DNA of 64,000 bases from NCBI RefSeq assembly GCF_003991155.1, contig NZ_CP031293.1, one strand, 5' to 3'. The position numbers are program-made. The stretch is from Escherichia coli. Its GTDB lineage: Bacteria; Pseudomonadota; Gammaproteobacteria; Enterobacterales; Enterobacteriaceae. Below, piece by piece: positions 45,001-48,000 of this stretch; positions within the stretch are counted from its first letter, which is position 1; every line of letters starts with the position of its first letter.

Positions 45001-48000
45001 GAATAAAAAATGCAGTAATCCTGTTTCAGAATTTGATGAGGCAAATGCCTTAAGGTTATGCGATGATCATTATAAGCTATGGAAGCGAAATAAAGAGAAT
45101 CGTCGGGTCAGGAATATTTGTCGTATAATTAGTAGATATGACAAAAGTCTGGACTGGGAGATATTTTATAGAGTAAGAGATGCTGCAAAAAATAAAACGG
45201 GAAAGAGAATTATTGAGGACGCAAAAATATTACATCAATGGCGTGCTTCAAAGCAAGTAAGAAAAAGTTTTCACAAGGGTGTGCTTCGGTCACGGGAATG
45301 GCTTAATACACAGGAGTTACTGAGCAGAAAACATATATCTGTTACAGGTGAACTATTTAAATTTTACATAAAAGATATTATCAGATTATATTGCTATAAG
45401 TTTCTCTACAGCAGAGAATATCTTAATGAAAACGCATACAAAAAACGATATCAGAGAGATATTCACCCCAGAAAAGTTAATGTTCCGATACTGCAACTTG
45501 AAGTTGCATGGATAAATAATAATTGCCGCTCAAGTGATTCAAGCACTGATATTATTATCCTTCCGAGGATGATAAGAAGAATGGTTGTATTTAATTATAC
45601 GAAGATAAATAAACAATTAGAGAAAGTGTTGGGGGGGATAGCACGAAAACAAACCTCAGAAAGGAATAAAGGCGGTCTCTATACCAGAATAAAAAAAGAA
45701 AGTGACTTTCTTTCTATGGATAGATTTATGGTGGAAATAGAAAATATCATAAGACCTGAAAGGTTTCCTACATCAATTTATCCAGTCTTTTCACATTCAT
45801 TTATTGAACGAGAGCTTCCGCTACTGAATCTTGCCCGATCACAGTATAAAAGAGCAATAAGTAAAAGAGTGGCGAATTCAATTTTTTATACTTTGCAAAA
45901 AACTAACGTGGCATTATGGCTATATCTTGAAATGTTTGCTCTGGTGGCATTCATTAAACTGTATACAGGAAAAGGTTTTGAATTCATAAAGAACATGTGT
46001 GTATTTATCGATTATGAGAAAGGGATAATAAAATCCACACATGAAGAACTGCTGGGTGAAATTAAGCGTAACATTCAAGTGAATTTGAAGGTGAATCCTG
46101 ATAATTTTCCAGAGTTAATAGACATATACAATTCATGCTTTAGTGAAAATATATTGTCATATGATATTCAGGATGGTAATTTTAAATGGCGCTCATGATG
46201 TAAAAATATTAATTTCACATTACATATTAATTATTCACAAAAAACATATAATTAATTTCAATGAGTTACATATAAAAATGTTGATGATTAGCCAGCTTAG
46301 TATGGTTATGCAATGTGATGCTTAACGCTTACAGATAATAACACATTCATATGAGCTATATATCATAATATTCAATAATCATGATATGCTAATCTGATTA
46401 TGGATAAAAATTACTGAATGACGCCATATTATGATTGGCAGTGTTTCCTGTATACGATGACTTATCTCTCCCGCATCATATGGGGGCACGTTTCTTAGGA
46501 AAAGTGACGGGGTTACAGAAGCCAATTACGATAGTTTGTTGTAGAGTTATCACGAGTTTTTGTTGTTCTGAAGACGGAATCAAAAAAATAATTCCAGAGT
46601 AAACCTGTCTGTTTTTTGACCAGTAAAGATCCATGCTGGCCGTGAAAAACTGAAATCAACACTCAGTCTGCATGGATGTCTGAAGATATTGAGAATGTCG
46701 GGAATGGTACTATATACGTATTATACAGACATATCTTCACTAAGTGTTATACACGCATTTTCATAAACAATTCTACAAGTGTTTTCATTAAGCATTGCTG
46801 TACACATTGTTTGATCTGATACACATCCAGTTTAGTAAATCTTTACGTTAGCTAAAATCAGTTTAAAGCTGCTACAAAACAATTTTTCTTGTTTAAGTAA
46901 TCAGGATGATATTCTATTTTTCTGAAGTTACGTTTAACCTTTTCTTAGTTTTTGTGTTTTTAGTCGTTAACCTGAGACAAGTGTCTTTATGTAAAAACGC
47001 AAATCCGGCTGAGATAACCTGGCGTGATTTACTGTGTGCTTACGATGATTTTGTTAAATGGTTTTATGGATGATTTTGTAACGATGAGATTGATGAGATG
47101 ATTAACTGGCCCTGGTGTTTTTTCTCAGCGCAAGACTCTTTTCAGGAAAAGCGTGATGATTGGTTCTGGTGTTTTGATTCAGATGAGGTTTACGTTATCG
47201 ATGGTTAACCGTTTTTATGGAGCGTAGTTAAAAGTAACGTTTTCAGTATAAGAAAATCGATTCTGATGTTGGTGGTTTTTGTTCTTGGGGCGGGGGTGTC
47301 TGTAAACAGGTTTTAATCGCGCTGTTCGGCTCTGTGATTGAGTTGTGTGGTTAAGCTGTAGGTGTGGTGTGATCTTACACAGCAATAGTGGACACGCGGC
47401 TAAGTGAGTAAACTCTCAGTCAGAGGTGACTCACATGACAAAAACAGTATCAACCAGTAAAAAACCCCGTAAACAGCATTCGCCTGAATTTCGCAGTGAA
47501 GCCCTGAAGCTTGCTGAACGCATCGGTGTTACTGCCGCAGCCCGTGAACTCAGCCTGTATGAATCACAGCTCTACAACTGGCGCAGTAAACAGCAAAATC
47601 AGCAGACGTCTTCTGAACGTGAACTGGAGATGTCTACCGAGATTGCACGTCTCAAACGCCAGCTGGCAGAACGGGATGAAGAGCTGGCTATCCTCCAAAA
47701 GGCCGCGACATACTTCGCGAAGCGCCTGAAATGAAGTATGTCTTTATTGAAAAACATCAGGCTGAGTTCAGCATCAAAGCAATGTGCCGCGTGCTCCGGG
47801 TGGCCCGCAGCGGCTGGTATACGTGGTGTCAGCGGCGGACAAGGATAAGCACGCGTCAGCAGTTCCGCCAACACTGCGACAGCGTTGTCCTCGCGGCTTT
47901 TACCCGGTCAAAACAGCGTTACGGTGCCCCACGCCTGACGGATGAACTGCGTGCTCAGGGTTACCCCTTTAACGTAAAAACCGTGGCGGCAAGCCTGCGC

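What the first reader, a model, noticed from the sequence alone, without database searches (positions are those of the whole stretch)
47030..47215. Imperfect direct repeats in AT-rich DNA just upstream of the IS3 insertion
Repeated blocks such as GATGATTTTGT (twice within about 30 nt) and CTGGTGTTTT (twice) occur in an ORF-free tract. This may be a degenerate regulatory or iteron-like region of the island into which IS3 inserted.
Basis: seen in the sequence. Interest (0 to 1): 0.2.

Follow-up and report, generated by a model that had tools for sequence, protein, structure and literature searches.

The report
Chance repeats in island non-coding spacer
The short repeats are really there, but they are low-complexity coincidences in a fast-evolving, G+T-rich, non-coding spacer of an E. 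coli genomic island, not iterons or any other conserved functional repeat, so the finding is ordinary.

Summary
The flagged strings exist. GATGATTTTGT occurs twice (47044, 47069). CTGGTGTTTT occurs twice (47112, 47166) and extends to 22 nt at 77% identity. Each is only nominally unusual for 186 nt (P about 0.01-0.02), and three loci in the 64-kb window do as well. An unbiased k-mer test on the whole non-coding module shows no significant excess of 8-10-mers.

The tract belongs to a ~1.06-kb non-coding module (46590-47369 plus 48631-48911, split by IS3). In 1865 of 5426 complete E. coli genomes a relative of this module was found; in the 18 fetched loci with an annotated neighbourhood it sits upstream of a YagK/YfjJ ("inovirus Gp2 family") HUH Rep-like gene.

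In the divergent haplogroup the repeats fall to 6/11 and 10/24 matches, although the Rep-like protein stays about 91-97% identical at DNA level. Their spacing also changes: the window lineage has a 20-nt deletion between the two copies. Positions 47030-47160 are the fastest-evolving piece of the module.

I found no conserved ORF, no codon periodicity, no Rfam hit, no excess RNA folding and no meaningful covariation.

The best reading is cryptically simple, slippage-prone spacer DNA. A more convincing iteron-like array, variable in copy number and with DnaA-box-like cores, lies upstream at about 46712-46830.

The parts
47044..47054 (+). Repeat A copy 1, GATGATTTTGT
   Evidence: D5. In relatives this is GACGATTTTGT or GACGATTCTGT.
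47069..47079 (+). Repeat A copy 2, GATGATTTTGT
   Evidence: D5. In haplogroup C it is GATGTTTTGAT, leaving 6/11 matches to copy 1.
47107..47128 (+). Repeat B copy 1, TGGCCCTGGTGTTTTTTCTCAG
   Evidence: D1. In haplogroup C it is GATTCCTGACGTTTTTCTTTTCCG, leaving 10/24 matches to copy 2.
47161..47182 (+). Repeat B copy 2, TGGTTCTGGTGTTTTGATTCAG. It forms the start of the conserved block.
47083..47103 (+). GATGAGATT/GATGAGAT/GATT imperfect micro-duplication, the main source of the local GATGA excess. It is absent from haplogroup C.
47133..47134 (.). Site of a 20-nt deletion in the window lineage. Most relatives carry AGGTGATTATCTTTATCATA-like sequence here. The deletion changes the spacing of repeat B from 74 to 54 nt and shifts the frame of the 36-aa ORF.
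47030..47160 (.). Fastest-evolving part of the module: 70-71% identity plus 31-33 gap positions against haplogroup C.
47161..47268 (.). Conserved block: 88-95% identity in all relatives, almost no gaps. It contains two ATCGAT sites (47197-47202, 47256-47261) and the near-palindrome AGAAAATCGATTCT (47251-47264).
   Evidence: (I4).
46590..47369 (+). Distal part of the ~1.06-kb conserved non-coding module upstream of the Rep-like gene. The + strand is strongly G+T-skewed from about 46900.
47370..48627 (+). IS3, 1258 bp, a simple insertion with target duplication GTG (47367-47369 and 48628-48630).
48631..48911 (+). Proximal part of the non-coding module. The last ~70 nt are 93-100% conserved and include the ribosome-binding site.
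48912..49643 (+). YagK/YfjJ ('inovirus Gp2 family') gene, 243 aa, with HUH-type motifs.
   Evidence: Pfam PF11726 at 6e-36 and PF23343 at 5.5e-9. R32, D34, Y213, K216 and K220 are invariant, and KHYHV is present in all 9 sequences except P0081, with HAH in the second window gene.
46712..46830 (+). Variable-copy iteron-like array (ATACACRTATTTT..ACTAAGTRT units) with DnaA-box-like cores. It lies outside the flagged coordinates.

Best explanation
The flagged 186 nt are weakly constrained, cryptically simple spacer DNA. They lie inside a ~1.06-kb non-coding module that precedes a Rep-like (HUH) YagK/YfjJ gene in CP4-type E. coli islands.

**Shown by the analysis.**
- The tract is not protein-coding.
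- It is not a structured RNA.
- It is not a conserved array of binding sites.
- The short repeats are lineage-specific.

**Inferred.**
- The repeats are by-products of a strongly G+T-biased, GATG-rich composition and of local slippage or micro-duplication.
- The same process produces a (GATGGT)n repeat of variable length about 60 nt downstream in relatives, and a 20-nt deletion between the repeat copies in this lineage.
- The tract is probably carried along as part of a long upstream or leader region of the Rep-like gene.
- Whatever cis-acting function the module has more likely resides in three other places: the conserved block 47161-47268, the last ~70 nt before the start codon, and the upstream repeat array at 46712-46830.
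For: **The repeats are not conserved.**
- Repeat A drops from 11/11 to 6/11 matches and repeat B from 17/22 to 10/24 in haplogroup C.
- The adjacent gene stays 91-97% identical at DNA level in the same loci.
- Repeat B spacing differs by 20 nt between lineages.

**The tract evolves fast.**
- 47030-47160 is the least conserved segment: 70-71% identity and more than 30 gap positions.
- The module as a whole (79-93%) diverges at least as fast as third codon positions of the gene (85-96%).

**No coding signal.**
- No 3-periodicity of substitutions anywhere in the module.
- Indels of 1, 2, 4, 5 and 20 nt.
- The 36-aa ORF is absent, frameshifted or truncated in all 16 aligned relatives.
- No Pfam hits.

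**No RNA signal.**
- No Rfam match at E<=1 in the window or in an IS-free relative.
- Fold z-scores are +2.08 (+ strand) and +1.25 (- strand), so the sequence folds less stably than shuffles.
- Consensus folds are weak, with covariation terms of -1.9 and -1.3 kcal/mol. All double changes trace to one haplogroup split.

**Statistics are marginal**.

**The region is plastic.**
- IS3 insertion in 21 genomes.
- (GATGGT)n of 0 to about 10 copies at about 47276.
- Replacement of 47189-48736 by a 1.15-kb gene-bearing segment in L018, L019 and L023.
- A ~70-nt deletion in L017.

**Composition.** GC skew is +0.28 to +0.43 and AT skew -0.23 to -0.29. GATGA occurs 7 times against 0.9 expected, all on one strand.
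Against: - Each repeat is nominally rarer than chance for 186 nt (P 0.011 and 0.019), and both fall in the same tract.
- CTGRYGTTTT recurs at a third, positionally conserved site (48674-48683), and a CTGRYGT-like sequence sits at 47019. In total there are 6 matches in the window against 0.77 expected. I defined this pattern after looking at the sequence.
- The tract is retained in about a third of E. coli genomes and in the variant islands that replace the downstream part, so some constraint cannot be excluded.
- No transcription or protein-binding data were available to me.
- Recombination between haplogroups makes the comparison with synonymous divergence only approximate.
Confidence: 0.68

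Rival explanations
1. The tract is part of a cis-acting site for the neighbouring HUH Rep-like protein, either a 'bind locus' or origin (dso or oriT-like). The short direct repeats would position the protein for nicking and for rolling-circle replication or mobilisation of the excised island.
For: - The adjacent gene carries HUH-type motifs (LRVDL, KHYHV, YLxKxxTK) whose key residues are conserved across 9 distant relatives (invariant R32, D34, Y213, K216, K220), and it matches the Pfam family Rep ORF2/G2P.
- In the 18 annotated relatives examined, the non-coding module sits directly upstream of this gene, whatever cargo flanks it.
- Gp2-family genes in other genera also have 400-1400 nt of ORF-poor DNA upstream.
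- All repeats lie on one strand, and the strand composition is strongly skewed.
Against: - The repeats are not conserved where the protein is, and their spacing is variable.
- There are only two copies of each.
- The tract has no hairpin potential; the fold z-score is positive. Known HUH nick sites usually sit in or beside a hairpin (my own knowledge).
- No repeated 8-mer is shared among upstream regions of distant family members beyond shuffle expectation.
- The better repeat array lies elsewhere, at 46712-46830.
Confidence: 0.12
2. The tract is the decayed remnant of one or more small protein-coding genes. In this view the in-frame WPWCFFS / WFWCFDS and DDFV strings are relics of an internal protein repeat.
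For: - Mechanical ORFs of 55 and 36 aa overlap the tract.
- Repeat B copies are in frame with each other in the window, 54 nt apart.
- Some relatives have 50-78-aa ORFs starting at the same ATG.
- PGAP occasionally calls small hypothetical genes nearby.
Against: - No codon periodicity of substitutions.
- In most relatives the 20-nt segment puts the two repeat B copies in different frames.
- Haplogroup C lacks the start codon.
- No Pfam match.
- PGAP annotates nothing under the tract in 38 of the 40 sampled genomes, and the listed calls that were fetched lie just downstream.
Confidence: 0.08
3. The tract acts at the RNA or transcription level in one of two ways. It may be part of a long 5' leader of the Rep-like mRNA. 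Alternatively, read on the minus strand, it may be a C-rich, G-poor, unstructured Rho-loading (rut-like) stretch that stops antisense transcription from running into the cargo and GTPase genes.
For: - A terminator-like hairpin closes the cargo gene at the left edge of the module (L002 3637-3654), so the module is a separate transcription unit.
- The minus-strand RNA would be 26% C and 12% G and is predicted to be unstructured. These are the general properties of rut sites (my own knowledge).
- G+T excess on the + strand fits that strand being the non-template strand (inference).
Against: - No sigma-70-like promoter passes the scan between 46400 and 47420.
- There is no conserved structure, no Rfam family and no expression data.
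- The composition argument is not specific.
Confidence: 0.12

Closest known systems
Iterons or 'bind locus' direct repeats of rolling-circle plasmid origins (for example the three 11-bp direct repeats of the pMV158 dso), and theta-plasmid iterons
   Same: - Short direct repeats on one strand.
- They lie a few hundred nt upstream of a gene for an HUH-type initiator-like protein.
- One repeat is also 11 nt long.
   Different: - Only two copies of each repeat.
- Spacing is irregular and variable between lineages.
- The repeats are not conserved among relatives that keep the protein.
- There is no adjacent nick hairpin.
- They are not statistically enriched once composition is controlled.
- The properties of plasmid iterons are from my own knowledge.
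Intergenic region of Ff (f1/M13) filamentous phages, the origin recognised by gpII
   Same: A long, T-rich non-coding region next to a gene of the gpII/Rep ORF2 Pfam family.
   Different: - The Ff intergenic region is dominated by stable hairpins (my own knowledge). This tract folds worse than shuffled sequence.
- No phage record holds similar DNA.
Cryptically simple sequence or a VNTR generated by replication slippage
   Same: - A biased motif content (GATGA, TGGTG) confined to one strand.
- A local 9-nt micro-duplication.
- A neighbouring hexamer repeat (GATGGT)n that varies from 0 to about 10 copies between strains.
- Frequent small indels.
   Different: In the window itself the flagged tract is not a tandem array; TRF finds nothing there.
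Backbone intergenic regions of CP4-57/CP4-6/CP4-44-type islands and the intY/alpA genomic islands described in bioRxiv 10.1101/2024.08.29.610337
   Same: - The same gene set is present: YeeP/YfjP-like GTPase, DUF932, antirestriction protein, RadC, CbtA/CbeA, and a Gp2-like protein as a core gene of unknown function.
- The tract is part of that backbone.
   Different: - In K-12 CP4-57, yfjJ follows yfjI with only about 150 nt between them, and no such 1-kb module is annotated there.
- The 243-aa protein type and its upstream module are largely restricted to Escherichia.

Membership tests
Iteron / origin bind-locus repeats | Three or more copies of one repeat unit with regular (helically phased) spacing | tested here: not met
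   There are two copies of each repeat, with spacings of 25 and 54 nt. Spacing is 74 nt in most relatives.
Iteron / origin bind-locus repeats | Repeats conserved among relatives that encode the same initiator | tested here: not met
   Matches fall to 6/11 and 10/24 in haplogroup C, while the gene stays 91-97% identical.
Iteron / origin bind-locus repeats | Repeat content exceeds the chance expectation for the local composition | tested here: inconclusive
   Nominal P is 0.011 and 0.019 within the 186 nt. Three loci per 64 kb do as well, and the unbiased module-wide test is non-significant for 8-10-mers.
Iteron / origin bind-locus repeats | Specific binding by the initiator protein | not testable with these tools
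   This needs EMSA, footprinting or ChIP.
HUH nick site / rolling-circle origin | Conserved hairpin or inverted repeat presenting the nick sequence | tested here: not met
   Fold z-scores are +2.08 and +1.25. No conserved stem has independent compensatory changes.
Structured non-coding RNA (any Rfam family) | Match to a covariance model, or conserved structure with covariation | tested here: not met
   No Rfam match at E<=1 in window 44000-50500 or in IS-free L002 3080-4800. Covariation is weak.
Protein-coding gene or recent pseudogene | Conserved reading frame, 3-periodic substitution pattern, and a family match | tested here: not met
   Indels are not multiples of three.
CP4-type island backbone (non-coding module upstream of the YagK/YfjJ gene) | Homologous sequence at the same position in other islands: after variable cargo and before the Gp2-family gene | tested here: met
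   1865 of 5426 genomes carry a copy. Eighteen annotated loci were examined.
IS3 insertion site | Full-length IS3 with terminal inverted repeats, a 3-bp target duplication, and an empty site in relatives | tested here: met
   The element is 1258 bp with GTG duplicated. Its ends match 27/40. The flanks are colinear with relatives. The junction occurs in 21 genomes.
HUH endonuclease superfamily (the neighbouring protein, not the tract) | Motif I, HUH motif and a catalytic Tyr motif conserved in the family | tested here: met
   R32, D34, Y213, K216 and K220 are invariant. KHYHV is present in all except one frameshifted sequence. The protein matches PF23343. No solved structure was found by sequence, and activity is untested.

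The most novel reading that the evidence does not exclude
The whole ~1.06-kb non-coding module may be the cis-acting control or origin region through which the HUH Rep-like YagK/YfjJ protein replicates or mobilises excised CP4-type islands. Its parts are the variable repeat array with DnaA-box-like cores at 46712-46830, the flagged G+T-rich tract, and the conserved ATCGAT block at 47161-47268. In this reading the flagged CTGRYGTTTT and GATGA motifs would be low-specificity contact or single-strand loading sites rather than noise.
Probability: 0.1. Interest if true: 0.5.

Novelty: not a real feature. Interest (0 to 1): 0.1.

Why it matters
As flagged, the finding matters little. The repeats are not a functional element, and the tract can be annotated as non-coding island backbone interrupted nearby by IS3.

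The useful by-product is a map of the module that accompanies a widespread but uncharacterised HUH Rep-like core gene of CP4-type and intY/alpA-type genomic islands. The map shows which parts are conserved: 47161-47268 and the last ~70 nt before the gene. It shows which part is genuinely repetitive: 46712-46830. It also shows which parts tolerate insertions and replacements. Anyone testing whether these islands replicate or are mobilised through this protein should start from those parts, not from the flagged repeats.

Tried and rejected
**Protein-coding reading: rejected.** There is no codon periodicity, the indels break the frame, the ORF is not conserved, and there is no Pfam hit.

**Known or structured RNA: rejected.** Two Rfam E-value scans found nothing, single-sequence fold z-scores are positive, and alignment folds on both strands are weak.

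**Sigma-70 promoter or intrinsic terminator inside the tract: none found**. Scans of IS-free relatives gave only weak, non-conserved promoter candidates, plus G-T-rich terminator-like hairpins in the part nearest the gene.

**A binding motif shared with distant Gp2-family loci: not found.**
- I fetched upstream regions from Providencia, Morganellaceae, Brenneria and two metagenomic contigs.
- No repeated 8-mer is shared beyond shuffle expectation.
- The G+T skew is not general.

**Homology between this module and the ORF-poor region upstream of the second YagK/YfjJ gene in the window:** only a 68-nt match near the start codons.

**Other collections.**
- Phages: no match.
- Plasmids: only 3 E. 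coli records.
- The species-wide genome scan with the protein gave only 2 loci.

**PADLOC on the flanking cargo proteins and the Rep-like protein:** no hits.

**tRNA or att context:** no tRNA in the window.

**CTGRYGTTTT as a motif:** 6 in the window against 0.77 expected. I defined it after looking, and the unbiased test does not support it.
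Full report
**Where the tract is**

The window is E. coli chromosome carrying a degraded CP4-type island. 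Around the finding the layout is as follows:
- a YeeP/YfjP-like GTPase gene at 43990-44874 (-);
- a 407-aa cargo gene without family match at 44975-46198 (+);
- an ORF-poor tract;
- IS3 at 47370-48627;
- the rest of the ORF-poor tract;
- a 243-aa 'inovirus Gp2 family' (YagK/YfjJ) gene at 48912-49643 (+).

IS3 is a simple insertion. It is 1258 bp long, GTG is duplicated at 47367-47369 and 48628-48630, and the joined flanks are colinear with uninterrupted relatives. The same junction exists in only 21 of 5426 complete E. coli genomes. The flagged tract, 47030-47215, ends 155 nt before IS3.

Yes, as strings.
- GATGATTTTGT is exact at 47044 and 47069.
- CTGGTGTTTT is exact at 47112 and 47166, and extends to a 22-nt pair at 77% identity.

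The tract is 62% A+T, but its real peculiarity is G+T richness (T 75, G 48, A 41, C 22). It belongs to a stretch with GC skew up to +0.43 and AT skew down to -0.29.

Against dinucleotide-preserving shuffles of the 186 nt, the two repeats have P = 0.011 and 0.019. The tract was, however, picked by eye from 64 kb. Of 1030 overlapping windows of the same size, 19 reach the first value and 21 the second, and three separate loci reach both.

An unbiased count of repeated k-mers over the whole 1061-nt non-coding module, against shuffles that keep local composition, is unremarkable for 8-, 9- and 10-mers and for 10-mers with one mismatch. Only the number of repeated 7-mers is raised. GATGA is locally enriched, 7 against 0.9 expected and all on the + strand, but I chose that motif after looking.

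**What the tract belongs to**

The sequence from about 46590 to the start codon, with IS3 removed, is a ~1.06-kb module. It is found at 70-100% identity in 1865 of 5426 complete E. coli genomes.

In all 18 relatives whose annotation I examined, the module follows variable cargo genes and precedes the Gp2-family gene. PGAP annotates nothing under the flagged tract in 38 of the 40 sampled genomes; in the fetched loci the small hypothetical ORFs it does call lie next to the tract, not in it. The module is absent from phage records and nearly absent from plasmids.

**The neighbouring protein**

The protein matches Pfam YagK_YfjJ_C and Rep ORF2/G2P. It keeps HUH-type motifs across distant relatives: invariant R32 and D34 in LRVDL, KHYHV, and invariant Y213, K216 and K220. 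No solved structure matches by sequence.

In Providencia and Morganellaceae the GTPase gene and a Gp2-like-AlpA pair are divergent neighbours separated by only 400-450 nt. The E. coli arrangement therefore looks like an expansion of that divergent intergenic region by cargo insertion.

A preprint lists the Gp2-like protein among the likely core genes of a broad class of intY/alpA genomic islands, without a known function (bioRxiv 10.1101/2024.08.29.610337).

**Comparative test of the repeats**

I aligned 17 copies of the module. They fall into about three haplogroups with mosaic relationships.

In the divergent group (L003, L004, L007-L013):
- repeat A becomes GACGATTCTGT / GATGTTTTGAT, 6/11 matches;
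- repeat B becomes GATTCCTGACGTTTTTCTTTTCCG / CGGTTTTGGTGTTTTGATTCAG, 10/24 matches;
- the Rep-like gene in the same loci remains 91-97% identical at DNA level.

The spacing of repeat B is 74 nt in most relatives. The window lineage has a 20-nt deletion at 47133/47134.

The tract is heterogeneous:
- 47030-47160 is the fastest-evolving piece of the module, at 70-71% identity and 31-33 gap positions against the divergent group;
- 47161-47268 is a conserved block, at 88-95% identity with almost no gaps;
- both copies of repeat A and the first copy of repeat B lie in the fast part.

Overall the module diverges at least as much as third codon positions of the gene. Recombination makes this comparison approximate.

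**Not coding, not a structured RNA**

- Substitutions show no 3-periodicity in any 120-nt window of the module.
- Indels of 1, 2, 4, 5 and 20 nt are common.
- The 36-aa ORF (47098-47208) is absent, frameshifted or truncated in all 16 aligned relatives; haplogroup C lacks the start codon.
- The ORFs have no Pfam match.
- Rfam E-value scans of the window and of an IS-free relative found nothing.
- The tract folds less stably than its shuffles on both strands, z = +2.08 and +1.25.
- Alignment folds are weak, and their few double changes all reflect one haplogroup split.
- No promoter or terminator candidate lies in the tract.

**Origin of the repeats (inference)**

The tract is cryptically simple. 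It is GATG-rich on one strand and contains an imperfect 9-nt micro-duplication (GATGAGATT GATGAGAT GATT, 47083-47103) that is absent from the divergent group.

Several events around it show a slippage-prone, insertion-tolerant region:
- a (GATGGT)n site about 60 nt downstream varies from 0 to about 10 copies among relatives;
- IS3 inserted nearby;
- 47189-48736 is replaced by a 1.15-kb segment with a 176-aa gene in L018, L019 and L023;
- L017 has a ~70-nt deletion.

Short imperfect repeats are expected in such DNA. That is my best explanation, at confidence 0.68.

**Rivals**

- **Bind locus or origin for the HUH protein.** This remains conceivable because of the gene next door and the long ORF-poor regions upstream of family members in other genera. 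Several features count against the flagged repeats being that site: they are not conserved, their spacing varies, the tract has no hairpin potential, and distant loci share no repeated motif with it beyond chance.
- **Decayed small gene.** The periodicity and frame data argue against it.
- **Leader or Rho-loading role.** This fits the composition and the lack of structure, but has no direct support.

**What looks more like a real repeat element**

About 200-330 nt upstream, at about 46712-46830, the module has an array of ATACACRTATTTT..ACTAAGTRT-like units.
- Its length varies from 116 to 233 nt, and its core count from 3 to 9, between haplotypes, by whole-unit indels.
- TRF reports a period-13 array in L014. 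The repeat finder reports 3-4-copy families in L002 and L014.
- The cores resemble the DnaA box TTATNCACA, with 3-7 matches at one mismatch or fewer in all but two of the eight haplotypes tested. The array's matches all lie on the + strand, and L014 and L015 have an exact TTATACACA. Shuffles expect 0.5-0.8 per strand, giving P of 0.000-0.02 in 6 of those 8 haplotypes.
- The window's own copy of the array is one of the shorter ones.
- This is a lead and not a demonstrated function.

**Verdict**

The finding is ordinary, and I score its interest at 0.1.

Noticed in passing
window 46712-46830 (relatives: L002 3750-3930, L014 1215-1420): An iteron-like array of ATACACRTATTTT..ACTAAGTRT units. Length (116-233 nt) and core count (3-9) differ between islands by whole units. 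The cores resemble the DnaA box TTATNCACA and all lie on the + strand. The array sits just after a terminator-like hairpin that ends the cargo gene.
   Followed up: partly
window 47161-47268: The most conserved internal block of the non-coding module (88-95% in all haplogroups, almost no gaps). It holds two ATCGAT sites (47197-47202, 47256-47261) and the near-palindrome AGAAAATCGATTCT (47251-47264). It may be an operator, or a binding or nick site. No sigma-70 promoter match was found.
   Followed up: partly
window ~47276 (L004, L007, L013 in the alignment): A (GATGGT)n hexamer repeat of variable length, from 0 copies in the window to about 10 in L007. On the minus strand it lengthens a PGAP 'hypothetical protein' ORF (174 to 249 nt).
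   Followed up: no
L018 1820-2972, L019 1812-2964, L023 2093-3255 (replacing window 47189-48736): A variant of the module in which the part between the flagged tract and the last ~175 nt before the Rep-like gene is replaced by about 1.15 kb. The replacement carries a 176-aa minus-strand gene with no PADLOC hit. The breakpoint falls inside the conserved block.
   Followed up: partly
window 55463-57433: A second, shorter YagK/YfjJ gene (56763-57329, 188 aa, HAH motif) also has about 1.3 kb of ORF-poor, strongly skewed DNA upstream. This stretch is C+T-rich, with GC skew down to -0.65, and has its own short direct repeats. It is not homologous to the first module, except for a 68-nt match between 48851-48918 and 57371-57433.
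   Followed up: partly
window 48637-48650 and 48885-48898 (L002 4495-4508 / 4766-4779; L003 4493-4506 / 4764-4777): A conserved long-range inverted repeat (GTTGATTTGCATTG / CAATCCAAATCAAC in relatives). Its downstream arm ends just before the GGAG ribosome-binding site of the Rep-like gene. It could pair within a 5' leader.
   Followed up: no
window 48912-49643 (residues ~165-205): The E. coli 243-aa protein carries a ~41-aa low-complexity insertion rich in Ser, Pro, Asp and Lys. The insertion lies between the HUH and Tyr motifs and is absent from the 189-207-aa relatives in other genera.
   Followed up: no
L025 3051-3500, L026 3093-3500: In Providencia and Morganellaceae islands the GTPase gene and a Gp2-like-AlpA pair are divergent neighbours with only 400-450 nt between them. 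In E. coli, variable cargo genes sit between the GTPase gene and the module, and further variable genes (restriction endonuclease, TIR protein, acyltransferase) follow the Rep-like gene. Both flanks therefore look like cargo slots.
   Followed up: partly
window 47019, 47112, 47166, 48674: CTGRYGT(T)-type motifs recur on the + strand at positionally conserved sites. The central dinucleotide switches between GT and AC at different sites in different haplogroups: site 47112 is AC in group C, and site 48674 is AC only in the window. This may reflect gene conversion between copies, or coincidence.
   Followed up: partly
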